Part shown: positions 37,914-60,404 of the stretch, piece by piece | How positions within the stretch are numbered: position 1 is the stretch's first letter | Layout: each line of letters opens with the position of its first letter | Source: Naegleria gruberi | Lineage: Eukaryota | Strand: one strand, 5' to 3' | NCBI GenBank assembly: GCA_000004985.1 | Contig: GG738927.1 | Length of the DNA stretch: 64,000 nucleotides | The notes under the pieces: model-generated | What the model was told of the DNA's origin: nothing | The model's input: the letters and a program-made list of their open reading frames with translations, nothing else | Database searches by the model: none | Translations under genes and position numbers: made by a program

Positions 37914-38900
37914 ATGGATACCACTGATGAACCAGAGTTCGTATTTGACAATGACTACATCCAGCATGTAGATATTGCCATGGACTACGCTGACAGCGGG
38001 GAGTGTATTTTTTCTGATAATGAAGGCAATCTTCAAGGAAGTATTCACTTAATCACTGAAAGTCATACAAGCAAAACTTTGAGCGGCAGTGTGAAGAAAG
38101 CCATTCAAACTTCCTCCCGATCTGTGTGCCGTCTCTATGTACTATACAAGTCAGATTGTAATAAGGGTATAAGATCATTTGGTACAGCTTTCTTTGTATC
38201 TGAGTCATTATTAATGACTGCCCAACATTGCATCAAGCCTTCTCATACAATAGATGGGGTCGTGTACTTCTTAAAAAGTACATACATTGATCTTTCCTGT
38301 TGTTCTAGAGACTCACAATTTGAAATTGATGACTCTAGTTTGATAAAGAAGGTGCAAATTGTAGATAGAAGCAATTTTGAGAAAGATATCCAACAATTGA
38401 AGATGCCTGGAAAGGATGTTCCATGGAAGACTAGCAACGACTTCGCATTTCTAGAACTTGACCAAAGGAACCTCACCACCCCCTTCATACCTGTTGAAAC
38501 AACATTAGAGGGTAATCAGTGTTATGTTATTGGGTATCCCGGCACTATTTCTATTGAAAAATTCAAAAAGGATTATTGCAGAGATTTAGATGATACCAAA
38601 TCTAACCAATTGTGGGGAAAAGTTCAGCGTGAAATGGGCTATTTTGAATGCAAAATTGCCAGCCAAGGAACGTTTCAAGTTAAAACTGGAGATTATTTGT
38701 ACACACATAATTGTCCTACTTTGTGTGGAACAAGCGGTGCTCCGGTTGTAAATGAAAATGGGAAGTTAATTGGAATTCATGTGGGTGGAGACTATGCATT
38801 ACACAATAATTTCTGGATAACTATTTCCAATCAACATTTGAAGAGTGCTCTCATTTCTATGAAAGTTTGTTCTGATCAATCCTTTGTATCGCTCCAATAA
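37914..38900 (+). CDS. Trypsin-like (chymotrypsin-fold, Trypsin_2/PF13365-like) serine peptidase, 328 aa, no signal peptide
   Basis: FGTAFFVSESLLMTAQHCI (His-box TAxHC) and CGTSGAPVVNENGKLIGIHVGG (Ser-box G-[DT]-SG-[GA]-P followed by G.H.G, typical of HtrA/V8-like trypsin_2 domains). Confidence 0.55.
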   Translation: MDTTDEPEFVFDNDYIQHVDIAMDYADSGECIFSDNEGNLQGSIHLITESHTSKTLSGSVKKAIQTSSRSVCRLYVLYKSDCNKGIRSFGTAFFVSESLLMTAQHCIKPSHTIDGVVYFLKSTYIDLSCCSRDSQFEIDDSSLIKKVQIVDRSNFEKDIQQLKMPGKDVPWKTSNDFAFLELDQRNLTTPFIPVETTLEGNQCYVIGYPGTISIEKFKKDYCRDLDDTKSNQLWGKVQREMGYFECKIASQGTFQVKTGDYLYTHNCPTLCGTSGAPVVNENGKLIGIHVGGDYALHNNFWITISNQHLKSALISMKVCSDQSFVSLQ

Positions 38901-39440: not shown

Positions 39441-41480
39441 TTATTGGTAGTGGAATTTGGTAGAAGAAGTGGGAATTACAGGAAGTTTGATTCTAGTTTC
39501 GGTACATTCGTGTGTAGAGAAATCTCTTCTCTTGATATCCTTGTGGCAAGAAGGACAATGAGTTTCATATTCTGAAAGATCAACTTGTTTGGCAACTTTA
39601 AGATCATATTCCAATTCATTTCCAGAGTGGCAGATTTGATTATGTTTGGAATAGTCGCATCTCTGTACGAGGCATCCACAATAGAGACAGATGATGCTCG
39701 AAGTTTTCAACCTGTTGGAAAGGTCTCTTCTCTGCTCTAGGATTTCATCAATTGATTGGGAATAGTCAATTGGCTTTACATTTTCGAGTGACTTATCCAT
39801 AAGTACTTGACTTTCTAACACTTGCAAGTCGACCTTATTTGCATATTTTGATTGCATGCTTTGCAGTGCTGGAGTGTGCTTTCTTGGCACGAGGCATACT
39901 TTTGCTGGTTTGGCATATCCAGACATAAACTCTAATAATTTATCCAATTCTGGGTTTTGTTCTCTGCAGTCGCCATATCCTCGAATACACAAACTCTTAA
40001 GGAATGAACGTCCTGCCCCGCCCTCTTTAAATACAAATAAAAGAGTCTCGATTAGTTTGGAACTCAATTCGCCATATGAAAAAGAACGAATGGATAGATC
40101 CAATTCCTCTAAGGTCTTTAAGGAATACAAGCTATTTTGCAACAAGTCAATATCATTTTCATTATCCACATGACATGAAAATAGCTTAATATTTGGGAAG
40201 TGTGTTATCCATCTATCTATTCTATTGGTAAAGAATGAACGTCCCTCCAATTTGAGTTCCAAAACATTTGGAAGTTCTTTCAGGTTTGGATCTGAGGTGA
40301 GGAATATTGGAGAGCTGTGTCTCATCAATGCAAAATCAAAGACACCGTCCAGATTTATGGACAGCTTCTTGACGCATTTGAATTTTGCTAAGAGTTCCAG
40401 AAAGGCCTTCGTCATTTCCACTGTATCAAAAATAGACAATGATTCTTCCCAATACGAATATTGAACTGTTCCAAGTGTAACTTCCAGCTCCTCCACAATA
40501 TTATTTGAGGTAGATGAGAGTTGATTCAACTGAGCTGCTTTGGTATAATTGAGATGAAGACTCAATTTCTTACAATTAGAAAGATTATTCAATTCAAAAA
40601 ACTTTGGTCCAATATACATTGATTCCAATACATTTGATGCAATACTATATTCAGTGTCATGATATAGATATTTGAGATTTTCAAATTCTGAAGTATTGGT
40701 AAGTAAAAAACCAGTGACATTGTCAAGGACTAGATTTTCCAACTTGTCCTTCACCCAATCAAAACACTGACAAAAAGGTTGATCAACCTTACATGTTTTC
40801 AATACTACTGTTTGTAAATTATCTTTACAAGCTTTGAATAAATTGCAAAATGCATTCGAATCAAAATTAAAATCCAACTTGATGAATGAACAATTGGTTG
40901 GATAGGATGTTTCCATTGAGAATGTTGGTTCTGTGAAATAGTTTGGCAAGTAGTTGACCACTCTTTGTGAAAATTCCTTCTTTCTTTGTTGATGAAGAGA
41001 TGGGAAATGAGTATTCCTTGGACGTGATGGAGCATACCTATCTAGATTAGCTTCCTGAATACTCCCATAGATGAATAGATTGAAAATCTTCATCCTATTA
41101 CTCTCCACAAACTTGTGCAAATACTTTACGAAGGGAATAATATCCTTCTCAATCATCATGTGTTTTTGATATTGCTCCTCCTTCTCACTACTAAATAAAT
41201 GATCAAAATCACCACCATACAAATCAATATTCGGATAGATGTGCAATGTATTAATTTGTTGAATGATAATTTCTCTCCATGATGAACACACCCGAGGAAT
41301 GATCATCATGATTGATCTAAAATCCAGATAGGATATGATTGAGTAGAGTACTTCTGGAGGAACCCTCGAATGAAACCAACCACCTGATCGTTGTTGCTCA
41401 TCTTCATCATTCTCTTCATGAATCGTTGTTCTTGTTATAGGAGATGAATTGAACATTTTTTTGATTCTGTCTTCAATCAA
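39441..41480 (-). CDS. F-box protein with LRR-like middle and C-terminal TRAF-type/C2HC zinc-finger-like Cys/His cluster, 679 aa
   Basis: N-terminal VPPEVLYSIISYLDFRSIMMIIPRVCSSWREII (canonical F-box). C-terminus CLYCGCLVQRCDYSKHNQICHSGNELEYD...HCPSCHKDIKRRDFSTHEC (two C-x2-C...H-x3-C units as in TRAF-type zinc fingers). Confidence 0.55.
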   Translation of the reverse strand: MIEDRIKKMFNSSPITRTTIHEENDEDEQQRSGGWFHSRVPPEVLYSIISYLDFRSIMMIIPRVCSSWREIIIQQINTLHIYPNIDLYGGDFDHLFSSEKEEQYQKHMMIEKDIIPFVKYLHKFVESNRMKIFNLFIYGSIQEANLDRYAPSRPRNTHFPSLHQQRKKEFSQRVVNYLPNYFTEPTFSMETSYPTNCSFIKLDFNFDSNAFCNLFKACKDNLQTVVLKTCKVDQPFCQCFDWVKDKLENLVLDNVTGFLLTNTSEFENLKYLYHDTEYSIASNVLESMYIGPKFFELNNLSNCKKLSLHLNYTKAAQLNQLSSTSNNIVEELEVTLGTVQYSYWEESLSIFDTVEMTKAFLELLAKFKCVKKLSINLDGVFDFALMRHSSPIFLTSDPNLKELPNVLELKLEGRSFFTNRIDRWITHFPNIKLFSCHVDNENDIDLLQNSLYSLKTLEELDLSIRSFSYGELSSKLIETLLFVFKEGGAGRSFLKSLCIRGYGDCREQNPELDKLLEFMSGYAKPAKVCLVPRKHTPALQSMQSKYANKVDLQVLESQVLMDKSLENVKPIDYSQSIDEILEQRRDLSNRLKTSSIICLYCGCLVQRCDYSKHNQICHSGNELEYDLKVAKQVDLSEYETHCPSCHKDIKRRDFSTHECTETRIKLPVIPTSSTKFHYQ

Positions 41481-41949: not shown

Positions 41950-43530
41950 TTAATCATTAGATCTACGCTTAGACATTGGTGAAATGAAGGATCTGAGAGC
42001 ATCAGCATTATTGGCTTGAGCAGGCTTTCTGTGATTGAGTGGAACATACTTTCTATGGTCAATACCAGTATAGACTTGCTTTGGTCTGAAAATCTTGACT
42101 TCAGGATCTTCCAAACTTTCAATCCAGTGAGCTAACCAACCAGCACATCTTGGAATGAGGAAAAGAACTGGATAATAGTCAGCTGGGAAACCTAAACACT
42201 TGTAAACCAAACCAGTGTAAAAGTCAACATTTGGATACAATTTACGTTCCTTAAAGTATGGATCATTGAGGGCAATTTGTTCGAGTTCAACAGCAATTTC
42301 AATCATTGGTTCCTTGCCCAAAACTTGGAAGACTTCATCGGCAACCTTCTTGACAATCTTGGCACGAGGGTCATATGAACGATAAATTCTGTGACCAAAG
42401 CCCATCAATTTCTTCTTTCTTTGTTTGACTTCTTCAATGAATTTTGGAATATTTTCCTTTGTTCCAATTTCTTCCAACATGTGAAGAACAGCTTCACAAG
42501 CACCACCGTGCAATGGACCATACAAGGCACCAGCTGTTAATTTACATTCCATTAAATTATTATAGAAATATTAAAATATATCATTTGATATTTTGATAAA
42601 TTACTTACATGCACCAGCAATTGAGGTGTATGGATCAACTCTACTACTGCTCAAGTGACGCATAGCAGCAGTGGAACAGTTCATTTCATGTTCTGCGTGA
42701 ATAATCCACAATTTTTCAAGAGCACGAGCAAGAACTGGATTTGGATGATAGTTGACTTCACTCAATCTGTCCAACATGTACAAGAAGTTACCAGTATAGT
42801 TAAGGTTATTGACAGGATTATTGTAAGGTTTACCAATTCTGTGACGATAAGCACTGGCAGCAATGGTTGGCAACTTTCCGAGAATACGATAAATTTGCTT
42901 AAATCTAAGTGAGTCAACCTTGACACAATCCTTATCAGCACCCTTCAAGAACAAATCAGATCCTTGGAGGGATGGATTAGCATCTTCATAGAAAGTACCC
43001 ATGGCAGCAATTGATGAAATAACCATTCCCATAGGGTGAGCATCATATCTAAATTGTTTCAACAAGGTGACCATGTTTTCGTGGAGATAGGAGTGTTTAG
43101 TAACTCTTTCTTCCCATAAATTCAATTGATTTCTATCTGGAAGTTCACCATTGATTAACAAGAAGGCAACTTCAAGGAATGATGATTTTTCGGCCAATTC
43201 TTCAATATCATATCCACGATAACGTAAAATACCTTTTTCACCATCAATATATGAAATACTACTTCTAGAAATGGCTGTATTCATAAATCCAGGATCCAAA
43301 CAAACAAGATCCAATTGTTCAAAAGCAACTGATCTGATGGCATTTCCTTCTTCTACATTAATTTTGATGATTTTTCCAGTCTTTGAATCCTTAACTTCAA
43401 GGAAACGTTTTTCACCAGGATTTGATGGAGCAGTAGCACTAGTCAAATTAGTGCTCAACATTTCTCCTCCAACAACTTGAGGCATCAAGTGTTGTTTAAT
43501 TGATTGCATTCTACGTTCAGCTGAAGACAT
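41950..43530 (-). CDS. Citrate synthase, bacterial/glyoxysomal type II, with PTS2-like N-terminal extension; complement(join(41950..42533,42609..43530)), about 501 aa
   Basis: Exon 1 has [32 protein letters not shown] and [30 protein letters not shown]. Exon 2 has [22 protein letters not shown]...[18 protein letters not shown]...[36 protein letters not shown]. These are the catalytic His/Asp context of GltA-type citrate synthase. A 75-nt intron (GTAAGT...AACAG) in phase 1. The N-terminal [15 protein letters not shown] fits the PTS2 nonapeptide pattern R-x-x-x-I-K-x-H-L. Confidence 0.85.
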
Positions 43531-44018
43531 TTTTATATATTATTTACAATAACTTGAAATGATGATGATTAGAGTGTGGTATTTTGAAAAATTATACAAA
43601 GTATTATATTCTAATAATACAATGAGAGAGACGGAGGAGGACAGAAAGGGACAAAGTGTGTTTGCTTCTCTGTAACAAAGGAGAGATGGTAGGAACTTTT
43701 TTTTGATAAATTTTTTAAAGCCTTGTTTGATGTTTGGTTGTTTCTGTCTATTGGTTTGCTTAAGAAACGGAGAATTGCAAAATTGTTTGTCGCTTGTTTC
43801 GTGCTTAGTCAACGCGTGGAAGAAATAACAAATCTCCGAAGGCCATTTACTGTAGAGACAAAGAATCCATTGTAAACATAGAGTCAATTAAAGATATTTG
43901 TTGTAAATGGCATAAAAAACATGATTAGAGTATCAAGCTTTTGAAGCGTGTCAGAATTTGCCATTTCTGATTCATTTTATTCAGTCAATTGTGAACTCAA
44001 AAGGTAAAATTGTAAAGT

Positions 44019-47340: not shown

Positions 47341-48459
47341 ATGAGTGAACATATATCCATTACCGAATCGAACAATAGTACATCAACAGAACCAACTAAA
47401 CCATCATCTGATGTAGCAACTGTTGGTTTAGATCGTCCATACACTACTGCAGAAGCTTTCTGTAGAAATATTGGACTTGTCTCAAAAGAAGAACAAGCAA
47501 AGATTGAAAGAACTTGTGTTGCAATTGCTGGCTGTGGTGGTGCAGGTATGTTGTGTTTTAAATATCTCAATTAATTAACATCTTTGTTAACTTTGACTAT
47601 TAATTGTAACATGCATTACAACAACATCTAATCATGTCGATGAAAAGGTGGAGGTTATGCAAGCGCATTGGCTAGAACAGGTGTCAGTAATTTCAAATTT
47701 GCTGATTTTGATCACTATGAATTGGTCAACTTTAACAGGCAATATGGTGCGACCGTTAATTCAATTGGCAGAAACAAGGCAATTGTCACATCTGAAATTG
47801 TGCTTGCCATTAATCCACTTGCCAAAACTAAAGCATTCACCAATGGTATTGATGAAAGTAATATTGATGATTTCCTTGATGGTGTAAATGTTGTAATGGA
47901 TGCACTCGATCTGTTTGCACCAAGAACCAGACGTTTACTCTACAAACATGCACACAAGAAGGGAATTGCTGTGTTTACTGCTGGTCCAATTGGTTATTCA
48001 TGTGCTTGGCAAATCTATCTTCCAACTGGTCCAACATTTGATGATTTCTGTTGCATGAATGATAGTATGAGTGATGAGGATTTGATAGTTAGACATTTAA
48101 TTACAGCAGCACCTGCTGGCACTCATCTGAAATATATGAAAGCAAAGAATGTTGATTTGAGTGGACATGCTGCTCCATCTCTGGGTCCTGTTTGTACTAT
48201 GTTGCATGGAATTTTGGTGATTGAGGTGATTAATTTTGTGACAGGAAAGAAGCCAATTAAGGGTGTGCCACATTATTTCCAATTTGATATGATGACCAAT
48301 CAATTCAAGACGGGCTATTTGAGATGGGGAAATAGAAATCCAATTCAAAAGCTGAAGATTTGGTATCTCAATAGATTATTGGAAAAAGGAAAGAAGGAAA
48401 GAGCATTGGAAACTAAACAACCAAAGGATACAGAAAAGGAAACTGAATTGAAGGAATAA
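47341..48459 (+). CDS. ThiF/MoeB/HesA-family E1-like adenylyltransferase; join(47341..47545,47648..48459), 338 aa
   Basis: Exon 1 ends ...RTCVAIAGCGGAG. A 102-nt intron (GTATGT...AAAAG) in phase 1. Exon 2 GGYASALARTGVSNFKFADFDHYELVNFNRQYG matches the ThiF nucleotide-binding and D.D.VE.SNLNRQ motifs. No catalytic-Cys or UFD-type extension was recognised. Confidence 0.7.
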
Positions 48460-49810: not shown

Positions 49811-52800
49811 TTATTGCTTTGATGCTTTAAGACAGGTCATTAAAAATCTCATATTCTTGGCATTCTTAAGTTCTTGGAAGTACAACTTGTTCAAAGACTT
49901 GAAAGTGTGGTCAGCTGATGTGAAATCGCCTTGTAACATGGCATCACTCCACATTAAAAGTTCGTGAGCCAATGCATCATTGCTAGTTTCTTGTAAAAGA
50001 GTAAAGAGTGCATTCACACTTTGAGCAATCATTCTCTTCTTTTCCAAATGAGCAGCTCCCTTATCTTCTCCTCCATATAACTTATCGAAACTTTGAGTCA
50101 AACTATCTACAACATTTTGATATCTGGCACTTGTGACATTTCTTTCAATATCAATTCCAGCATACTTTTCCAAATTTTCTCTCAAAATGGCTTGTTGATC
50201 GACAACTGGTTGAATAACCATAGGTTGTTGAATAACTTCTGATTGTGGATTCAATGTTGGTGGCATTGTAACTTGTTGCCAAGTTGGAGTCATTGATGGA
50301 GAAGAATTGCTGCTACCTGTGCTTGGTGGCATACCTCCACCCATCATTGGTGGCATACCTCCCATTGGCATTTGGTTGGATTGGAATCCAGTGGATGGTT
50401 GAATTGGTTGTGGAGCAAATGTAGCCACACCTCCCAAATTATTATTTCCACTCATTGAATTCATTCCATATCCTCCCACTGATGGCATTCCTCCGCCCAT
50501 CATTGGTGGCATACCTCCACTCATTGAGTTTGATTGGAAACCAGTAGATGGTTGAATTGGTTGTGGAGTGAAAGATGCAACTCCTCCCAAATTATTATGA
50601 ATTGGATTATGAGTACTAGTTGGTTGATGATAGACAGGTGTTGTTGTTACAGGGTTATGGACTGGTTGAGTTACAGTAACTGGTTGATGCATGGCTACAG
50701 GCTTAGCAACAGCACCAGTTGGTGGAACGATGGCTCCTGAAATTGGGGAAACTGTTGGAAGTGGTTGAGGCAACAATTGAACATCAACCTTCTTGTATCC
50801 ACTACCTCCCAATTTCTTTGTATTGGTTGGTGAATCTGATCTGGTCGAAGAAGAGATTGTAGCACTTGAGCTTGGTGGAATAGAAGAAGCATGAGTTGTT
50901 GGAGTTGGTTGTGTTGTTTGTTGTGTTGGTTTCTTCTTAATCCAAGAACTTGGCATGGAAGGAGCCTTGAGACTTTGTGGAGCCTTACCAATGGAATGAT
51001 AAAGACGATATCTCAATTCTTGAATATCAACATTGGAATAATCCTTTGGAAGAATAATTGGTTGAGATGAAGTTTGGTCAATAGCAATATTCAAACAACG
51101 GAGAGCCAATGGTAAAGTCTTTTGAACATCAACCAAACTGCCCAATTCAATACATTTCATAGCAAATGTAATATAATATTGATTCAAAACATGACCATTT
51201 TGCAACATTTGATTCAAGATAGATTCAATGTATGAAATGGTAGTTGTCTTCTTGGAGATGGAGGCATAGGTGAGATGGTGTGTATGAAGTAATTCAATCT
51301 TGGAAATCAAATCAATGAGTCTGACAGCAAAATCTGGGCTTGATGTTGAAACACCTTCAATACTCTTTTCGAATTCAGAAATCCATCTGGTGAAGATTTG
51401 TTCAATTTGTCCAGAAAGGAATGAACCCAAGAGTGATCCTAGGAGATCATCTTCAGATTGTGGTTCATTTGGTCTATCAATGAGACGTTGTTCTTCCTTT
51501 TCAACCAAAGACTTGAGAACAGAATCGATCAAAGTCTTGTTCTTTGTCATATCCAAACAGAGAGTAGCAAGTTTTTCCTTCCAACTTTCTTCAGTATGGT
51601 TAAGAACAGCATCATAATTCTTATAGACAAGATCTCTCATGGCATTAATGACGGAACCTTCCTTACTATTCAAAAATTGTTCAACAACATAATTCCACAA
51701 TTCACTATTGCCAGTAACTTTGGCCAAAACTAAGGCATCAGAAAATCTGTTACCACTCAAGCAACAGTTGATGGCTCCTTGCATATTTCCAACAATAATA
51801 TTCTTCTTAATGAGTGTGCTCAATTCCTCAGAGTTATTTCTTTCGGATTCACTTGATTGAGGTTCAACAGTTTGAGATTGTTGTTGGATAGTTTCTCTAT
51901 TGTATCCTAACAATGATTGAATCTTCTTTCCTTTTTCTTCATCAGAAGTAAACAAAATTTCCAACAAATTCCATTCCATTGATTGGCTTTCAGATTGCTT
52001 TTGCTTACAATATTGAACGCAAAGATCTCTCTTTTCTTGTGGAGAAACTTGAGAAAGAACAATCTTTTCCAATTCAATAACTTGCTTATTGAAATCGAAC
52101 ATCTTTGGTGCATCAGATTCACTAACAGAAACAGAGGCAAGAGCAGAGGCACCACTGTAAATACGAATTGGATTTGGAGTCATGAATTGTTGAACTTGTT
52201 GGTGCTTTTCCAAACTATTTTCTTCACTTTCTTGCTTGATTGTGTTATTGAAAGCAATTAATCTATTTCCAAAACACCAAGAAACACCAGCTGGTCTCTT
52301 AAGCCATTTTGGTGCAGTCTTCAAAACTGAAGCAGTTGGTTGTGAAATATTCTTGACAGAGGCATTGAATGCATTGGATTCAACATTGACAGAACTTGGA
52401 TCTTGAACACTGTAAACTTGAATCTTCTTATCAAAAGAGCTTGTTGAAAGAATAGTTGATTTGTATGACCATTGGGCATCGAAAATCCATGGATATTCTT
52501 CTTGAGTATTAACTCTTCCCTTATTATTTCTATTGGATGATGAAACTTCAGAGAAACCAGTTGAAAGTTCTCCAAGTAAATCACCAGTATTAGGATTCCA
52601 AATAAGTGAACGATTGTCCTTACCACTACTGACCAAAAGGTTACTATCTTCACGACACCAACTAACACTCAAAACACCCTTTTGATGTCCTTGTTGAGCG
52701 GATCCGAGTTCTCTGATTGGAGCATAAGCCTTTCTCAAATCCCAAACTTCAATAACTGGTCTTTCATCATCCTCACAAGCTACTAATAATTGAGTATGAA

Positions 52801-53770
52801 TATCTGGATTCCAAGCAAGAGAACTGTATCTTGATCTTGGATGATTGGCATTACTGAAAGGAACAAGAACACGTTTTTGTCTCAAATCCCAAACAACAGA
52901 TGTTCCTTGATGAGATGTTGTTGCCAAAATATATTCGAATTTTTGATTCCATTGAAGATGAGAAATTGTTTGATTTTGATGTGGATTTTTACAACCCAAA
53001 ACAACAACACCAGGTTGTTCTGGTTGCTTCAAGTTCCAGATGAAAAGTTGTCCATCTTCACCAGCACTTGCCAATAAATTGACTTGTTTTGGATTAAATT
53101 CTAAGCCACGAACACTATTTTGGTGCTTATCAAGAGTAGCAACAAGAGCAGAACTTGTTGATGAAATTTTCTTTGTCTTGGAGTAAGATTCTACCATCTT
53201 GTTAACATCAAAAAGACTAATAGTACCATCAACTTGAGCACCAGCAACAATACCAAGTGATTCTCCTGTTGATCCCGGAGTACCCCAAGAAAGTCTGTTA
53301 AAACGATCAGGTGCTTCGATTTGAGCAACTAATTTTGGATGCTTTCTAGCAGCTTCCTTTTTCTTCTTTTCCTCTTCCTCTGTTGAGATTAATTCGTTTT
53401 GTTGATGAGTAGAACCCAATGATGAAAAGAAAGCTGATGAAGAACTATTTGAGAAGAAATCATCATCGTTACTTTGGAAAATATCTGATGAATCTGTTGA
53501 TTCTTGTTGTTGTTGTACGGATTCTTCTTCAACAGGGGTTTCTTCACTCTCTTCATATTTTGTGCTTAAACTACTGATTTGCTTTCCTGTAAAGCTTGGC
53601 AATATACTGTATATTTCTAAAGTTGCTCCAGTACCTGCTTGTTGACTAGATCTCAGCGATTCATTCCAATCCAACGAGCCAGCCAGAGAACCAACAGCCA
53701 TCAAATCGGTGTGGTCTTGAATAGGACACCAAGAAAGTGTACCAGACTTGTTAACGGAAGTGAGTCTCAT
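49811..53770 (-). CDS. sec31: COPII outer-coat component Sec31, single exon, 1319 aa
   Basis: N-terminal WD40 propeller with LAWNPDIHTQLLVACEDDERPVIEVWDLRKAYAPIRELGSAQQGHQKGVLSVSWCREDSNLLVSSGKDNRSLIWNPNTGDLLGEL, paralleling the conserved Sec31 block (IAW.P....ILAS.SDD....IWDLR.......L.GH.KG.LSL.WC..D..LLLSSG.DN....WNP.TGE.LGE). Central Pro/Gly/Met-rich region with repeated GGMPPMMGGGMP. Conserved alpha-solenoid C-terminus. Confidence 0.8.
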   Translation of the reverse strand: MRLTSVNKSGTLSWCPIQDHTDLMAVGSLAGSLDWNESLRSSQQAGTGATLEIYSILPSFTGKQISSLSTKYEESEETPVEEESVQQQQESTDSSDIFQSNDDDFFSNSSSSAFFSSLGSTHQQNELISTEEEEKKKKEAARKHPKLVAQIEAPDRFNRLSWGTPGSTGESLGIVAGAQVDGTISLFDVNKMVESYSKTKKISSTSSALVATLDKHQNSVRGLEFNPKQVNLLASAGEDGQLFIWNLKQPEQPGVVVLGCKNPHQNQTISHLQWNQKFEYILATTSHQGTSVVWDLRQKRVLVPFSNANHPRSRYSSLAWNPDIHTQLLVACEDDERPVIEVWDLRKAYAPIRELGSAQQGHQKGVLSVSWCREDSNLLVSSGKDNRSLIWNPNTGDLLGELSTGFSEVSSSNRNNKGRVNTQEEYPWIFDAQWSYKSTILSTSSFDKKIQVYSVQDPSSVNVESNAFNASVKNISQPTASVLKTAPKWLKRPAGVSWCFGNRLIAFNNTIKQESEENSLEKHQQVQQFMTPNPIRIYSGASALASVSVSESDAPKMFDFNKQVIELEKIVLSQVSPQEKRDLCVQYCKQKQSESQSMEWNLLEILFTSDEEKGKKIQSLLGYNRETIQQQSQTVEPQSSESERNNSEELSTLIKKNIIVGNMQGAINCCLSGNRFSDALVLAKVTGNSELWNYVVEQFLNSKEGSVINAMRDLVYKNYDAVLNHTEESWKEKLATLCLDMTKNKTLIDSVLKSLVEKEEQRLIDRPNEPQSEDDLLGSLLGSFLSGQIEQIFTRWISEFEKSIEGVSTSSPDFAVRLIDLISKIELLHTHHLTYASISKKTTTISYIESILNQMLQNGHVLNQYYITFAMKCIELGSLVDVQKTLPLALRCLNIAIDQTSSQPIILPKDYSNVDIQELRYRLYHSIGKAPQSLKAPSMPSSWIKKKPTQQTTQPTPTTHASSIPPSSSATISSSTRSDSPTNTKKLGGSGYKKVDVQLLPQPLPTVSPISGAIVPPTGAVAKPVAMHQPVTVTQPVHNPVTTTPVYHQPTSTHNPIHNNLGGVASFTPQPIQPSTGFQSNSMSGGMPPMMGGGMPSVGGYGMNSMSGNNNLGGVATFAPQPIQPSTGFQSNQMPMGGMPPMMGGGMPPSTGSSNSSPSMTPTWQQVTMPPTLNPQSEVIQQPMVIQPVVDQQAILRENLEKYAGIDIERNVTSARYQNVVDSLTQSFDKLYGGEDKGAAHLEKKRMIAQSVNALFTLLQETSNDALAHELLMWSDAMLQGDFTSADHTFKSLNKLYFQELKNAKNMRFLMTCLKASKQ

Positions 53771-55454: not shown

Positions 55455-56774
55455 ATGTTTTATTGGCTGCTTGGATCGATACCCTTTGTGGTACTCTTTT
55501 CTTTGGCTTATTACAAACAAAACTTGTTACTCTATTGTAATTATATGCCAAGAGGACAGGCTAGAATACTTGAATACTTACCTTCTATCTTCAATCTGCC
55601 ATTCGAAGATATTTTCCTCGATACATTGGACGGACAAGCAAAGATACATTGTTGGTTCCTTCGTTATGTACAACCAAATAGTGGCGGAATTGATGCTGCC
55701 TTCCTTCAAAAGAAGTCAAACGATAAACATGATGAAGACGAGGATGGAATCTTTTCCTTCCATCAAAATCAAACTGTAGGAATTTCTAATCATGCCGAAG
55801 AACATGGAAAGAAGAAGCAAAAGAAGAGTAATGTTGCCATGATGCAATACAAGAAGCAACTTCAATATACTCCAACAATAATCATGTTCCATGGTAATGC
55901 TGGAAATATTTCCCATCGTTTGACCAATGCTAGAGATATGTATCATACTTTAAAGTGTAATATTCTCATGGTTGAATATAGAGGATATGGTAAGAGTACT
56001 GGAGAACCTTCCGAAGAGGGCTTGAAGAATGATGCTGAAACAGCAATTAGATATCTTCTTGAGAAGCGATCGGATATCAATCCAAATAACATTTTCATTT
56101 TCGGAAGAAGTTTAGGAGGAGCTGTATCAATTTATTTGGCTTCAAAATATGCCAATGCTATTCGTGGAGTTATTGTTGAGAATACCTTCATGTCTATTCC
56201 AAAGTTGATACCAGCCATTTTCCCATACAGATTCATTTCACCAATTCTTCAATTCTTTAGTGTCAATAAGTGGGATAATGAAGCTACATTGAGAAATGCT
56301 CAATTCAGAAATGATTATCACAGAAAGAGACTTAATGGTGATTTGCCATTCTTATTTATTAGTGGAAGAAAGGATGAACTCATTCCAGCCACTCATATGG
56401 ATACTCTCATTGAAATTTATTGTGAAAGATTTGGAGAATATTGTTATGTTAAGAGATTTGATGAAGGCACTCATTATGGAACTTGGTTATGTCCTGGATA
56501 TTATGTTAATTTATACAAATTTGTTAAAAAGTTTAGAGTTAATCCACCAGTTGAACCAACCAAAACAAGAAAGCATTCTGTAGCTAAGACTCACAGTCTC
56601 CCTCAAACAGAACTTCAAATGTCTGACGATGTTATTGATAATATTACTATTACATTTGCTGACCCTCAATCACTCTCTGATTATAGTGGTAGTGCTCCAA
56701 ACAGTGGATCCAATAGCAATTCTAATAGTGGTGATAACACTCCTAGAAAGAAGGGTACCTATCTCTTCAGATAG
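55455..56774 (+). CDS. Alpha/beta-hydrolase Bem46 / ABHD13-like, 439 aa
   Basis: MFHGNAGNISHRL...MVEYRGYGKSTGEPSEEGL...IFIFGRSLGGAVSIYLAS...VIVENTF...LFISGRKDELIP...GTHYGTWLCPGYY, co-linear with ABHD13/Bem46. Nucleophile GRSLG. Charge-relay Asp in RKDELIP and His in GTHY. Insert with D/E-rich and N-rich stretch. C-terminal S/N-rich tail. Confidence 0.85.
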   Translation: MFYWLLGSIPFVVLFSLAYYKQNLLLYCNYMPRGQARILEYLPSIFNLPFEDIFLDTLDGQAKIHCWFLRYVQPNSGGIDAAFLQKKSNDKHDEDEDGIFSFHQNQTVGISNHAEEHGKKKQKKSNVAMMQYKKQLQYTPTIIMFHGNAGNISHRLTNARDMYHTLKCNILMVEYRGYGKSTGEPSEEGLKNDAETAIRYLLEKRSDINPNNIFIFGRSLGGAVSIYLASKYANAIRGVIVENTFMSIPKLIPAIFPYRFISPILQFFSVNKWDNEATLRNAQFRNDYHRKRLNGDLPFLFISGRKDELIPATHMDTLIEIYCERFGEYCYVKRFDEGTHYGTWLCPGYYVNLYKFVKKFRVNPPVEPTKTRKHSVAKTHSLPQTELQMSDDVIDNITITFADPQSLSDYSGSAPNSGSNSNSNSGDNTPRKKGTYLFR

Positions 56775-57678: not shown

Positions 57679-60404
57679 ATGCAACAACAAGTCTTAGAGG
57701 ATGATGTGAAGGATAAACATTATCATTCGGAAGAAGGCTTGGATGATGGCAGTAGTAGTAACAGCAAAACTTCATCATCAACTTTATCTACTAATGTTAA
57801 TAGTAATAATACAACGACAATAAGAATGGAAAATTCAAAGAGTAGTAAGAATATGGCGGTGGAGGAATCGGTGGTCAATCAGGATAACAATATTGGTGCT
57901 AGTAAGAATGATGTTAATAGTAATATGCCAACAATTGTTATTCCTCATTCTTCGGAGAGTAGTAATTCAACAATTGCACATCATCATTTGCCCTTCAAAG
58001 TTGTAAATAACATCCACAATGAAAAAAGAAATAATTCTGTAGATTCCTTCTCCTCTGTGAGTATTTCTCCAACGACACCATCCACTGCTGGAAGTAGCAT
58101 TACTGTAAATTCAAATATTAGTTATAATAATAGTCGATTTGTAAATACGAATTTCACTTTTGGTTCATCAGGCTCTTTGACATTGACACCAACTGGTATT
58201 CACTCTCCTTCAATTCAAAATTCTGCCTCTATGAATAATTCAACAGGTACACTTCCGAGTGTTGATTCACAAAATATACATTTTTCAATGCCAATAGAGC
58301 AAGGTGGCCAATCCTATCAAAACTTGTCTGTGGATACTTCTCATCCTGAATTTTTACCTGCCACCAAGTTGACAGGAACTAGTAATTCTAGTTTTGGATC
58401 GTTAATCAATGGAACAAGTACCCAAAACAGAAGTGTTCTCTCAGTGAGATCAGTTGGCTCAAATATTGCCTTTGTGCCATCTCCTGGTTCTTCCAAGACA
58501 ATAATTTCTCCAGTGGCAGTTTCTTCATCAGTTTCCTTCGCAAATAATACAAAGAATAATACCATAAGCGACCCAGTTGCATTGAAAGGTACTGAATATT
58601 ATCATCATGATGAGGATGAAAAGGACGATTTTAAAAATGATGAAATCTCTACCTTTAAGGATGTGGATTTGAATCAAGAAGTTTCCGATGAGGATGATGG
58701 ATCGTCTCATAGAGATTCAATTGATACTAACAGAAAGAGTGTGGAATTGTTACTCAAGGATATTCCAACCTCTACTGGTAAAAGTGATGATTTTCATAGA
58801 GAACGATTGTGGAGACATTTCACTAAAACTAATATTGCTTTTGGTGTTTACAATTTAATTAATGATGTTGTATCACCAGCAACAATTAGTTCAGGTTATA
58901 CTGTCGCTCAGTCTGGTATTGGCGCCTATGTTTTAACATTGGTCATTGTTGCCTGTTTGATATTTTTCACGTTGATAATTCTCTATGATATGGCTAATGC
59001 ACAAAAAGTTACGAGTTTTCCTTCATTGATTAAGAAAACTTTTGGAAATATTGGATATATTTTGATTTGCATATTTATATTTTTGTTCAATTTTGGAGCT
59101 GTTTGTTCTGAACTTATTGAAATTTCTCAAATTTTGCCTGATTTATTGTATGAGCTTATTGGAAAGGAGTCAGTTTTCATTTCAAGATATGCTGTACTTG
59201 TTTATGTAACCATTATTTTGTTACCAATTGCATCTATGAAGCAATTATCAAGCTTCAAGTATGCTTCCCTCATTTCTGTAACTAGTGTTGCCCTAATTTC
59301 CATCTTATTGACCTATGAGCTTGGTCTCGGTAGAAGAAAGGTTCCTTACAATGATTCAGTTTTTGATTTTTTAAGACCTCAATATTTGAGCGCTATGGGA
59401 ACCTTGAGTTTTGTTTTTGTTTGCCATGATGTAAGTAGTATTACACTCATACTGATTCCAATAATTCCTAAAATCAATAGGTGAGTTTTGAGGTGATTGG
59501 ATCACTCAAAAACAATAGTAGAAAGCGTTACATGATTCTTGTATTTTGCATGCTTCTTTTGGCTGTTGGAGTTCTTCTTTTTATGGGACTTTCGAGCTTT
59601 TTATTGTTTTTCGATGTCAATTTGAAGGATGCCAATGTTTTGGATTTATTACCAAAGAATTATGGATTGGCGATTTTGGCAAGAATTCTCCTTTGTGCCT
59701 CTCTTGGATTATCAATTTCCTACACTTGTTTCATGCCTCGATTTGCCCTTAAGTCAGTAATCAAGACAATTTTGCAACAATTCGACGAAGTTAAACAACA
59801 AAAGGAACAATTCAAAACAAAACCATTCACTAGTGAACCATCCGACGAAAATACAGTTACTGAAAGTGAGCTTACTGTAGTGAGTGCTGGAAAGGACTCT
59901 GAAGAGGAGGATGCTGCAACAACTAGTGTCAATGAAACTTCACCAACAAGTGAAAATACCAAACACAAGAATGCAGTCTTGGCAAGTATTTCCAGATTCT
60001 TTGCCACCAGAACAGGAAAAGACGCTCTCCACTACGGAACTACCTTAATAGTTGTCCTGTCTGCTTTCATTGTTGCAATACTTGTGGAAAATTTGGGAGT
60101 TATTATTGGACTCACAGGAGCCATCAGTGCCACAACCATCGCTTATATTTTCCCAAGTTTGACCTACATTGTTTTGGAGAGAAGAGAACGAAAGGAAATG
60201 ATTGCAAAACTATTGGAAAAACAAGATTATGAAATGGTCAAGAATCACAAGGAAGCCAAGTCAACCAATACCAGCAAGAATATCAAACTTTCACTTCCTT
60301 GGACAAGAAGGGCTGCTGTGGCCTTCTCTTATTTTGTCTTGTTGACTGGATTTGCCATTCTTGTATTGAGTTTATCGAGTATTATTTATTATGCAGTTCA
60401 ATAA
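57679..60404 (+). CDS. Amino-acid transporter, Aa_trans (SLC38/AVT-like) family with long Ser/Asn-rich N-terminal extension; join(57679..59430,59481..60404), 891 aa
   Basis: After ~390 low-complexity residues the sequence reads NIAFGVYNLINDVVSPATISSGYTVAQSGIGAYVLTLVIVACLIFFTLIILYDM... (TM1-2 of Aa_trans), ...LGTLSFVFVCHD|VSFEVIGSLKNNSRKRYMILVFCML (Aa_trans FAF.CH motif spanning a 50-nt GTAAGT...AATAG intron in phase 0), ...LIVVLSAFIVAILVENLGVIIGLTGAISATTIAYIFPSLTYIVL (TM10-11). Confidence 0.75.

What the first reader, a model, noticed from the sequence alone, without database searches (positions are those of the whole stretch)
41950..43530. Type II (bacterial/glyoxysomal-type) citrate synthase with PTS2-like N-terminal nonapeptide
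The catalytic core is GltA-like ([14 protein letters not shown]..., [13 protein letters not shown]) rather than the mitochondrial eukaryotic type. A ~75-residue N-terminal extension contains RMQSIKQHL, which fits the PTS2 pattern (R-x3-[LVI]-[LSGAK]-x-[HQ]-[LA]). This predicts a peroxisomal or glyoxysomal citrate synthase of the plant/Dictyostelium kind. It is a useful lineage marker and argues against a dikaryan fungus.
Basis: partly seen in the sequence, partly recalled or inferred. Interest (0 to 1): 0.5.

Follow-up and report, generated by a model that had tools for sequence, protein, structure and literature searches.

The report
Naegleria peroxisome-targeted citrate synthase, mis-annotated start
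This is a Naegleria gruberi gene for a plant/slime-mould-type citrate synthase with a conserved peroxisome import signal (PTS2) at its N-terminus; it is an ordinary member of a known enzyme family, but the public gene model starts 23 residues too late and so lacks the signal.

Summary
A two-exon gene on the minus strand (43530..42609, 75-nt intron, 42533..41950) encodes a 501-aa citrate synthase. Its closest solved relative is Arabidopsis peroxisomal CSY3 (E 4e-164), and it is far from the eukaryotic mitochondrial type. Residues 7-15, RMQSIKQHL, form a PTS2-type nonapeptide. The window is Naegleria gruberi NEG-M: the public model XP_002669424.1 (478 aa) equals residues 24-501, so it starts at Met24 and lacks the signal. 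Four results favour the upstream ATG:
- The nonapeptide is conserved in N. fowleri, N. lovaniensis, Willaertia, Dictyostelium CshA and others, with synonymous changes at the defining residues.
- GC content jumps from 0.19 to 0.39 exactly at ATG1.
- Codon usage in codons 1-23 is coding-like.
- An in-frame stop lies just upstream.

According to the literature, N. gruberi has Pex7 and a separate mitochondrial citrate synthase with a classical presequence. One survey recorded no peroxisomal citrate synthase in N. gruberi, probably because of the truncated model.

Corrections: the extension over GltA is about 38 residues, not 75. Met at motif position 2 is outside the strict consensus, though RMx5HL is an accepted minor variant. 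"Glyoxysomal" is unsupported, and the lineage-marker value is weak. Localisation is inferred, not shown. This is a new member of a known kind, of modest interest.

The parts
42609..43530 (-). Exon 1 of the citrate synthase gene (codons 1-307 plus the first base of codon 308), starting at the ATG proposed here as the true start
   Evidence: ORF and splice reconstruction. Residues 24-501 are identical to XP_002669424.1.
42534..42608 (-). 75-nt intron, GTAAGT...AG, GC 0.15
   Evidence: The only in-frame GT..AG solution that restores [16 protein letters not shown]. GC. The N. fowleri orthologue has no intron here.
41950..42533 (-). Exon 2 (rest of codon 308 to codon 501, plus stop TAA at 41952-41950)
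43486..43512 (-). PTS2-type nonapeptide RMQSIKQHL (residues 7-15)
   Evidence: Sequence. Conserved in Naegleria, Willaertia and many other eukaryotic orthologues. Five synonymous differences from N. fowleri fall at conserved residues of the RRMxxIKQHLxP stretch, three of them at motif-defining positions. In the AlphaFold model of the N. fowleri orthologue, the equivalent stretch is the end of a helix (residues 9-25) ahead of a disordered linker.
43411..43485 (-). Low-complexity linker (residues 16-40) between the signal and the folded enzyme
   Evidence: Length and sequence vary among orthologues but stay in frame. The equivalent N. fowleri stretch has pLDDT below 50.
43459..43461 (-). Met24 codon, the start used by the public N. 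gruberi model XP_002669424.1 / D2W2N7 (478 aa)
   Evidence: P0122 equals residues 24-501 exactly.
43540..43542 (-). In-frame TAA stop, three codons upstream of ATG1, closing the reading frame
   Evidence: GC drops to 0.19 and codon log-odds turn negative upstream of ATG1.
42079..43290 (-). Pfam Citrate_synt domain (residues 81-459; spans the intron)
   Evidence: PF00285, E 1e-131, 439.7 bits.
42688..42690 (-). His281 (HAEHEMN), catalytic histidine, invariant in the alignment
   Evidence: Invariant column in A1, which includes E. coli GltA. Its catalytic role is from established knowledge of citrate synthases.
42391..42393 (-). His355 (GFGHR), catalytic histidine, invariant
42223..42225 (-). 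Asp411 (NVDFY), catalytic aspartate, invariant

Best explanation
The gene encodes the peroxisomal citrate synthase of Naegleria gruberi.

How it most likely works: translation starts at the ATG at 43530. Residues 7-15 (RMQSIKQHL) form the hydrophobic/basic face of a short amphipathic helix, which the cytosolic receptor Pex7 recognises as a PTS2. A flexible linker of about 25 residues separates this signal from a GltA-like enzyme body that has all catalytic residues. Inside the peroxisome the enzyme condenses acetyl-CoA from peroxisomal beta-oxidation with oxaloacetate, so that carbon leaves the organelle as citrate. This is the role shown for Arabidopsis CSY2/3.

Shown here: the gene structure, the enzyme family, the presence and conservation of the signal, and coding signatures upstream of the publicly annotated start. 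From the literature: Pex7 in the genome and a separate mitochondrial citrate synthase. Inferred: actual import into peroxisomes and the metabolic role.
For: Family:
- CSY3 peroxisomal is the best PDB match (E 4.1e-164, residues 41-489).
- GltA-type NCBIfam models score 464-500 bits, against 99.6 bits for the eukaryotic mitochondrial model.
- The catalytic His/His/Asp residues are invariant.

Signal:
- RMQSIKQHL lies at residues 7-15.
- Orthologues carry RMMNIKQHL (N. fowleri, N. lovaniensis), RLKILKQHL (Willaertia), RINILANHL (D. discoideum) and RLETLSRHL (Andalucia).
- 36 of 97 homologues have the canonical motif in the first 45 aa, against 3 hits elsewhere. Position 5 is L or I in 41 of 44, and Pro follows at +11 in 20 of 44.
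- Chance expectation is 7.8e-4.
- RMx5HL is listed as a PTS2 of rice MDH, pxPfkB and TLP, and of Ectocarpus thiolase.

Start codon:
- Five synonymous differences between N. gruberi and N. fowleri fall at conserved residues of the RRMxxIKQHLxP stretch (three at motif-defining positions), and within the nonapeptide replacements occur only at the x positions.
- GC is 0.19 upstream and 0.39 from ATG1 onward. Frame-0 codon log-odds is +0.46 for codons 1-23 against +0.50 for the rest of exon 1 and -0.58 upstream. The context tatataaaaATG resembles other starts in the window.
- An in-frame stop lies three codons upstream.

Machinery and alternatives:
- Pex7 is reported in N. gruberi, N. fowleri and N. 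lovaniensis, and acyl-CoA oxidase is another predicted PTS2 cargo.
- A eukaryote-type citrate synthase, XP_002678141.1, with presequence MRSSLKLTKILSKAS... is listed in a supplementary file (file 4) of the study of mitochondria-enriched fractions; its cluster assignment was not read.
- The second GltA-like paralogue in Naegleria and Willaertia lacks the motif and falls in a different clade.

Structure: in the AlphaFold model of the N. fowleri orthologue, the signal sits in a helix (residues 9-25), followed by a disordered linker (33-70, pLDDT below 50), then a confident beta hairpin and core.

Metabolic fit: N. gruberi prefers lipids, uses peroxisomal and mitochondrial beta-oxidation, and has no detected carnitine acyltransferase genes.
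Against: - There is no experimental localisation and no transcript or peptide evidence for residues 1-23 in N. gruberi. The 501-aa protein and versions starting at Met8 or Met16 are absent from the 15-billion-protein collection.
- Position 2 is Met, which fails both the strict and the broad Petriv-type consensus.
- PEX13 and PEX14 were not found in Naegleria, so the import machinery is atypical.
- No peroxisomal malate dehydrogenase, the usual oxaloacetate source, was identified in N. gruberi by Gonzalez et al. 2011.
- A canonical PTS2 can still fail or mis-target; NgHIT1 went to mitochondria in PMC7710942.
- The protein was not found in the truncated text held for the N. gruberi organelle proteome.
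Confidence: 0.72

Rival explanations
1. Two products from one gene. Translation from Met1 gives the peroxisomal form. Initiation at Met8, Met16 or Met24 (by leaky scanning or a downstream transcription start) gives a signal-less cytosolic citrate synthase.
For: There are four in-frame Met codons in the first 24 residues. Met8 and Met24 also have A at -3. Automatic gene callers chose internal starts both in N. gruberi (Met24) and in N. fowleri (MNIKQHL..., P0124/P0125).
Against: The first AUG has the A-rich context seen at other starts in the window. The internal Mets are not conserved in position among orthologues. There are no data on transcripts.
Confidence: 0.12
2. The public annotation is right. 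Translation starts at Met24, the enzyme is cytosolic, and the upstream 69 nt are 5' UTR that happen to be open.
For: RefSeq/UniProt model XP_002669424.1 / D2W2N7 has 478 aa. Gonzalez et al. 2011 list no peroxisomal citrate synthase orthologue for N. gruberi.
Against: The peptide is conserved with synonymous substitutions. The motif sits at the same place in dozens of orthologues, some from complete transcript ORFs. The codon-usage and GC break lies at ATG1, not at Met24. The stop codon lies immediately upstream of ATG1.
Confidence: 0.06
3. The N-terminal extension is a mitochondrial presequence, alone or as a dual signal, and the enzyme works in the TCA cycle.
For: The extension has three basic residues and can form an amphipathic helix. 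PTS2-like sequences have been seen to direct proteins to mitochondria (NgHIT1). Mitochondria and peroxisomes co-purify in N. gruberi fractionation.
Against: The first 25 residues hold 3 basic and 2 acidic residues, against 5 and 1 in the genuine N. gruberi mitochondrial citrate synthase presequence. That eukaryote-type enzyme already covers the mitochondrial function. What is conserved among orthologues is the specific R-[LIM]-x2-[LI]-x2-H-L pattern, not general presequence character.
Confidence: 0.06

Closest known systems
Arabidopsis thaliana peroxisomal citrate synthases CSY2/CSY3 (PDB 9x0i) and pumpkin glyoxysomal citrate synthase
   Same: Best solved relative: 550 bits, E 4e-164, aligned over residues 41-489 including the eukaryote-specific C-terminal tail. 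Both have an N-terminal PTS2 (RLx5HL in CSY2/3) ahead of a GltA-like body. The proposed role, carrying acetyl units out of peroxisomal beta-oxidation as citrate, is the one shown for CSY2/3 (Pracharoenwattana 2005, cited; content from my own knowledge).
   Different: Met instead of Leu at motif position 2. No C-terminal SAL/SSV tripeptide; the protein ends ...RRSND. No Cys in the first 76 residues, so there is no plant-like Cys-containing processing site (sequence; the plant site is from my own knowledge). Cys replaces Asn in HGGANEA, and there is an insertion of about 9 residues at 196-207. A glyoxylate-cycle context was not shown for Naegleria.
Dictyostelium discoideum peroxisomal citrate synthase CshA (P0040-type)
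   Same: 61-62% identity over the full length. PTS2 RINILANHL at residues 6-14 followed by an acidic, low-complexity linker. A second GltA-like paralogue without PTS2 also exists in the same genome, as in Naegleria. CshA was shown to be peroxisomal by Huang et al. 2004 (reference).
   Different: It falls in a different clade of the NJ tree (Amoebozoa versus the heterolobosean group). Its motif has canonical Ile at position 2.
Escherichia coli GltA (type II, hexameric, NADH-regulated citrate synthase)
   Same: 42% identity. The catalytic His/His/Asp residues and many active-site motifs are invariant. The N-terminal beta domain is alignable. The GltA-type NCBIfam models are the top hits.
   Different: The window protein has about 38 extra N-terminal residues carrying the PTS2 and about 25 extra C-terminal residues. 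It scores just under the equivalog cut-offs (499.9 vs 505; 464.3 vs 485.15). Hexamer formation and NADH inhibition were not tested.
Saccharomyces cerevisiae Cit2 (peroxisomal citrate synthase)
   Same: It works alike: a citrate synthase imported into peroxisomes to process beta-oxidation acetyl-CoA (my own knowledge). It is listed as a PTS1 protein.
   Different: Cit2 belongs to the eukaryotic mitochondrial-type family and uses a C-terminal PTS1. The window protein scores only 99.6 bits against that family (cut-off 619.75) and has no PTS1.
Naegleria gruberi mitochondrial citrate synthase XP_002678141.1
   Same: Same reaction, same organism.
   Different: It is the eukaryote type (GLAGPLHGLANQE motif) with a classical basic presequence, and is listed in a supplementary file of the study of mitochondria-enriched fractions.

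Membership tests
Citrate synthase superfamily (Pfam PF00285) | Significant match to the Citrate_synt domain over its full length | tested here: met
   E 1e-131, 439.7 bits, profile positions 1-357 of 357, residues 81-459.
Citrate synthase superfamily (Pfam PF00285) | Catalytic His, His and Asp present | tested here: met
   H281, H355 and D411 are invariant columns in an alignment that includes E. coli GltA.
GltA-like ('type II') citrate synthase / eukaryotic peroxisomal-type clade | Closer to GltA-type than to the eukaryotic mitochondrial type | tested here: met
   NF004126 scores 499.9 bits and TIGR01798 464.3 bits, against 99.6 bits for TIGR01793. In the PDB search, CSY3 scores 550 bits, bacterial GltA 365-390 bits and pig or human mitochondrial enzymes about 98 bits.
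GltA-like ('type II') citrate synthase / eukaryotic peroxisomal-type clade | Reaches the curated cut-off of the bacterial GltA equivalog models | tested here: not met
   499.9 vs 505 and 464.3 vs 485.15. It falls narrowly below, as expected for a eukaryotic offshoot; in the NJ tree all eukaryotic sequences sit on a long branch away from E. coli.
GltA-like ('type II') citrate synthase / eukaryotic peroxisomal-type clade | N-terminal beta-sheet domain preceding the helical core | tested here: met
   Residues 41-80 align with the N-termini of CSY3 and E. coli GltA. The N. fowleri orthologue model has confident strands at the equivalent place (75-79, 86-90).
GltA-like ('type II') citrate synthase / eukaryotic peroxisomal-type clade | Hexameric assembly and allosteric NADH inhibition (the biochemical definition of type II) | not testable with these tools
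   Needs enzyme assays and oligomer analysis.
PTS2-targeted peroxisomal matrix proteins | Nonapeptide fits the strict or broad published consensus: [RK][LVI]x5[HQ][LAF], or [RK][LVIQ]xx[LVIHQ][LSGAK]x[HQ][LAF] | tested here: not met
   Position 2 is Met; all other positions fit.
PTS2-targeted peroxisomal matrix proteins | Fits a documented variant with hydrophobic position 2 (RMx5HL) and hydrophobic position 5 | tested here: met
   RMQSIKQHL has Ile at position 5. RMx5HL is listed as the PTS2 of rice MDH, pxPfkB and TLP and of Ectocarpus thiolase. These are predictions or orthology-based listings, not direct tests of the Met variant.
PTS2-targeted peroxisomal matrix proteins | Signal lies within about the first 40 residues, outside the folded domain | tested here: met
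   It lies at residues 7-15, and the folded part begins at about residue 41. A helix followed by a disordered linker is seen in the orthologue model.
PTS2-targeted peroxisomal matrix proteins | Signal conserved in orthologues and absent from non-peroxisomal paralogues | tested here: met
   Synonymous-only changes at defining residues between N. gruberi and N. fowleri.
PTS2-targeted peroxisomal matrix proteins | PTS2 receptor Pex7 encoded in the same genome | not testable with these tools
   The genome is not searchable here. The literature reports PEX7 in N. gruberi, N. fowleri and N. lovaniensis.
PTS2-targeted peroxisomal matrix proteins | Pex7-dependent import into peroxisomes demonstrated | not testable with these tools
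   Needs reporter fusions or fractionation.
Glyoxysomal citrate synthase (glyoxylate-cycle member) | Isocitrate lyase and malate synthase present and co-localised | not tested
   No genome access. [quoted passage not shown] I therefore do not file this gene as glyoxysomal.
Eukaryotic mitochondrial citrate synthase (TIGR01793) | Reaches the family cut-off | tested here: not met
   99.6 bits against a cut-off of 619.75. N. gruberi has a separate protein of that type.

The most novel reading that the evidence does not exclude
Naegleria is a lipid-preferring amoeba for which no carnitine acyltransferase genes have been found, and which apparently cannot make TCA intermediates from fatty acids. In such an organism, this PTS2 citrate synthase could be the obligatory exit route for acetyl units from peroxisomal beta-oxidation, as CSY2/3 are in Arabidopsis. 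The human pathogen N. fowleri has an 82%-identical orthologue with the same RMx5HL signal, and humans have no enzyme of this type. It would then be a parasite-specific choke point in the pathogen's preferred energy pathway.
Probability: 0.2. Interest if true: 0.55.

Novelty: new member of a known kind. Interest (0 to 1): 0.3.

Why it matters
Three practical consequences follow.

1. The reference N. gruberi protein (XP_002669424.1 / D2W2N7) appears to be N-terminally truncated by 23 residues. The missing part is exactly what carries the targeting information. Predictions of the Naegleria peroxisomal proteome built on that model will miss this enzyme, and one published comparative table does record 'no peroxisomal orthologue'.

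2. It adds a second predicted PTS2 cargo to an organism whose PTS2 pathway has been inferred from Pex7 and a single cargo.

3. It supplies a plausible missing link in the published scheme of Naegleria lipid catabolism. That scheme leaves the cooperation between peroxisomal and mitochondrial beta-oxidation unresolved (how chain lengths are divided between the organelles, how fatty acids enter mitochondria) and records no carnitine acyltransferase genes.

None of this changes what is known about the enzyme family or about PTS2 signals in general.

Tried and rejected
- The look-up of encoding contigs found nothing for the Willaertia orthologue or for the public N. gruberi protein. Only the N. fowleri locus could be compared at the DNA level.
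- Exact look-ups of the 501-aa protein, of spliced versions starting at Met8 or Met16, and of exon-1 ORFs starting at Met1, Met8 or Met16 found nothing. No transcript-derived support for, or against, the upstream start could be obtained this way.
- The N. gruberi organelle proteome supplement (Horvathova 2021) is held only in truncated form. It contains the mitochondrial citrate synthase but not this protein, nor catalase, so the cluster assignment is unknown.
- Opperdoes 2011 (N. gruberi metabolism) and Pracharoenwattana 2005 are not held. The supplements of Bexkens 2018 are not held.
- I considered the trypsin-like ORF 3 kb away (37914-38900) as a possible DEG15/Tysnd1-type PTS2-processing protease. 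I dropped the idea because the ORF ends ...SLQ with no PTS1 and I have no other link.
- I scanned the window for PTS1-ending ORFs (none), tRNAs (none) and Rfam families (none).
- I considered 2-methylcitrate synthase. Those models score 232-335 bits, well below the citrate synthase models.
- Two literature searches failed on term syntax.
Full report
**What is in the sequence**

The region holds one gene on the minus strand. Two open frames (43530..42601 and 42552..41950) are joined by removing a 75-nt intron, GTAAGT...AG, at 42608-42534. This is the only in-frame GT..AG combination that restores the conserved [16 protein letters not shown] stretch, and it gives a 501-aa product ending at TAA 41952-41950. 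An in-frame TAA lies three codons upstream of the first ATG.

**Which organism and which annotation**

- The best database hit is an N. fowleri protein (82% identity), followed by Willaertia magna (71%).
- Its 90%-identity cluster contains the N. gruberi NEG-M protein XP_002669424.1 / EFC36680.1 / D2W2N7, 'citrate synthase family member', 478 aa.
- That sequence is identical to residues 24-501 of my model.
- The window is therefore N. gruberi. This is consistent with its 33% GC content and short intron.
- The public model starts at Met24 and does not contain the nonapeptide.
- The 501-aa sequence, and versions starting at Met8 or Met16, are not among about 15 billion public protein sequences.

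**Enzyme family**

- Pfam Citrate_synt covers residues 81-459 (E 1e-131).
- NCBIfam ranks the GltA-type models first: NF004126 at 499.9 bits and TIGR01798 at 464.3 bits, both just under their bacterial equivalog cut-offs. The eukaryotic mitochondrial model scores 99.6 bits against a cut-off of 619.75.
- Among solved structures the best match is Arabidopsis 'Citrate synthase 3, peroxisomal' (9x0i; E 4.1e-164; residues 41-489). Bacterial GltA proteins score 365-390 bits and animal mitochondrial enzymes about 98 bits.
- In an alignment with E. coli GltA (42% identity), the catalytic histidines and aspartate (H281, H355, D411) are invariant.
- E. coli Met1 aligns at about residue 38-40, so the true N-terminal extension is about 38 residues, not 75. 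Residues 41-80 are the beta domain that GltA-type enzymes already have.
- A C-terminal tail of about 25 residues (S[FY]xSxxSKRR) is shared by the eukaryotic clade and absent from E. coli.

**Is the nonapeptide a real signal?**

It occurred in 316 of 200,000 shuffles of residues 2-40. It is the only hit in 13,500 aa of window ORFs.

Conservation is the stronger argument. Orthologues carry these sequences at the same place:

| Organism | Nonapeptide |
|---|---|
| N. fowleri, N. lovaniensis | RMMNIKQHL |
| Willaertia | RLKILKQHL |
| D. discoideum (CshA-type) | RINILANHL |
| Cavenderia | RLNVISGHL |
| Andalucia | RLETLSRHL |
| Balamuthia | RLNRIGSHI |
| Spizellomyces | RIDAIAGHL |
| Piptocephalis | RLNQLSGHL |

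- Of 97 full-length eukaryotic homologues, 36 have the canonical [RK][LVI]x5[HQ][LAF] motif in their first 45 residues, against three hits in all other parts of these proteins. Position 5 is Leu or Ile in 41 of 44, and a Pro follows two residues after the motif in 20 of 44.
- A second GltA-like paralogue exists in N. fowleri, N. lovaniensis, Willaertia, dictyostelids and Andalucia. It lacks the motif and falls in other parts of an NJ tree.
- Met at position 2 is specific to Naegleria and lies outside the strict consensus. RMx5HL is, however, listed as the PTS2 of rice peroxisomal MDH, pxPfkB and TLP and noted in Ectocarpus thiolase. A Dictyostelium PTS2 with Ala at position 2 was shown to work.
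- In the AlphaFold model of the N. fowleri orthologue, the motif is the C-terminal part of a helix (residues 9-25, pLDDT about 67). It is followed by a linker with pLDDT below 50 (residues 33-70), and then by the confident beta hairpin and core. That layout is what an exposed targeting signal should look like.

**Which start codon?**

Four results favour ATG1 at 43530.

- Between N. gruberi and N. fowleri, the conserved stretch RRMxxIKQHLxP differs by five synonymous changes at conserved residues (CGT/CGG, ATT/ATC, CAC/CAT, TTG/TTA, CCT/CCA); three of these lie at motif-defining positions (Ile5, His8, Leu9) and two at the flanking Arg and Pro. Within the nonapeptide, replacements occur only at the two free positions. 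This is the signature of selection on a translated peptide.
- GC content is 0.19 in the 69 nt upstream of ATG1, close to the intron's 0.15. It is 0.39 in codons 1-23, the same as in the next 23 codons.
- Codon-usage log-odds in frame 0 is +0.46 for codons 1-23, against +0.50 for the rest of exon 1. It is negative in the other two frames and in all frames upstream.
- The context tatataaaaATG resembles five other ORF starts in the window, and it is the first AUG after an in-frame stop.

I could not obtain transcript or peptide evidence for N. gruberi itself. Several orthologues with the motif do come from complete transcript ORFs.

**Cellular context, from the literature**

- PEX7 is reported in N. 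gruberi, N. fowleri and N. lovaniensis. PEX13 and PEX14 were not found.
- Gonzalez et al. 2011 list acyl-CoA oxidase as a PTS2 protein in N. gruberi but record 'no peroxisomal orthologs identified' for citrate synthase. The truncated model explains that entry.
- N. gruberi has a separate eukaryote-type citrate synthase, XP_002678141.1, with a classical basic presequence, listed in a supplementary file (file 4) of the study of mitochondria-enriched fractions; its cluster assignment was not read. The protein studied here is therefore not needed for the TCA cycle.
- N. gruberi prefers lipids and oxidises fatty acids in both peroxisomes and mitochondria. No carnitine acyltransferase genes have been detected. 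According to Bexkens et al. it cannot make Krebs-cycle intermediates from fatty acids.
- Naegleria IDH1 carries a PTS1.

**Most likely mechanism**

The long form is translated, bound by Pex7 through the amphipathic RMxxIxxHL helix, and imported into peroxisomes. There it condenses beta-oxidation acetyl-CoA with oxaloacetate, and the carbon leaves as citrate. This is the function established for Arabidopsis CSY2/3 (reference; content from my own knowledge).

- Shown here: family, signal, conservation, and coding signatures of the extension.
- From the literature: the receptor and the separate mitochondrial isoenzyme.
- Inferred: import and metabolic role.

I put this explanation at 0.72. The rivals are dual products from alternative initiation (0.12), the public Met24 start (0.06), and a mitochondrial presequence (0.06). 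'Glyoxysomal' should be dropped, because nothing here or in the papers read points to a glyoxylate cycle in Naegleria.

**Comparison and novelty**

The gene works like, and by sequence belongs with, the plant CSY2/3 and Dictyostelium CshA group of PTS2-bearing GltA-like citrate synthases. It is analogous to, but not a member of, the yeast Cit2 type.

The clade with PTS2 is spread over Discoba, Amoebozoa and early-diverging fungi, and plants join it through CSY2/3 (RLx5HL). It therefore says little about lineage beyond excluding groups that lack it.

In the searchable literature only one paper mentions Naegleria, peroxisomes and citrate synthase together, and it reports absence. The finding is thus a new, previously mis-annotated member of a known kind. 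It is useful for annotation and for models of Naegleria lipid metabolism, but not surprising to a specialist.

Noticed in passing
window 43459-43530 (-): The public N. gruberi protein XP_002669424.1 / D2W2N7 (478 aa) starts at Met24 and omits 23 residues that show coding signatures and carry the PTS2. Automatic callers also truncated the N. fowleri orthologue to MNIKQHL... (P0124, P0125).
   Followed up: yes
window 37914-38900 (+): A 328-aa ORF with a Trypsin_2 / trypsin-like peptidase domain (E 3e-16) lies 3 kb from the citrate synthase gene. PTS2-processing proteases (DEG15/Tysnd1) are trypsin-like, but this ORF ends ...FVSLQ without a PTS1, and nothing else links it to peroxisomes.
   Followed up: partly
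window about 42495-42518 (-), residues 313-320 (GPLHGGAC): Cys replaces the otherwise invariant Asn of the HGGANEA motif. The change is shared by the PTS2 paralogues of Naegleria and Willaertia and by environmental or transcriptome relatives (P0022-25, P0031). It is absent from the non-PTS2 paralogues, dictyostelids and E. coli. The functional meaning is unknown.
   Followed up: no
window about 42910-42945 (-), residues about 196-207: An insertion of about 9 residues ([11 protein letters not shown]) specific to Naegleria and Willaertia, relative to all other aligned citrate synthases.
   Followed up: no
window 41953-42030 (-), residues about 477-501: A C-terminal tail with the conserved pattern S[FY]xSxxSKRR is present in both PTS2 and non-PTS2 eukaryotic paralogues and in plant CSY3, and absent from E. 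coli GltA. Its role is unknown.
   Followed up: no
window 42534-42608 versus L001 3001-4602: The 75-nt intron of the N. gruberi gene has no counterpart in N. fowleri, whose gene is a single 1602-nt ORF. The neighbouring genes also differ: Cpn60_TCP1-containing and CBS-domain genes in N. fowleri, against an F-box-like gene and an unannotated ORF here. Local synteny is therefore not conserved.
   Followed up: partly
proteins P0074, P0126, P0068 (not in the window): N. lovaniensis, N. fowleri and Willaertia have a second GltA-like citrate synthase with no PTS2, no basic presequence and a long acidic C-terminal extension. No full-length N. gruberi counterpart appeared among the top 120 hits; only short fragments (for example P0130, 70 aa) are in its cluster. 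Its location and function are open.
   Followed up: partly
window 1-64000: There are no tRNA genes, no Rfam family at gathering threshold, and no ORF of 100 aa or more ending in a canonical PTS1 tripeptide. Neighbouring ORFs include an F-box-like protein (39441-41480), ThiF-family (47668-48459), a 1319-aa WD40 protein (49811-53770), an alpha/beta hydrolase (55455-56774) and an amino-acid transporter (57679-59484).
   Followed up: partly
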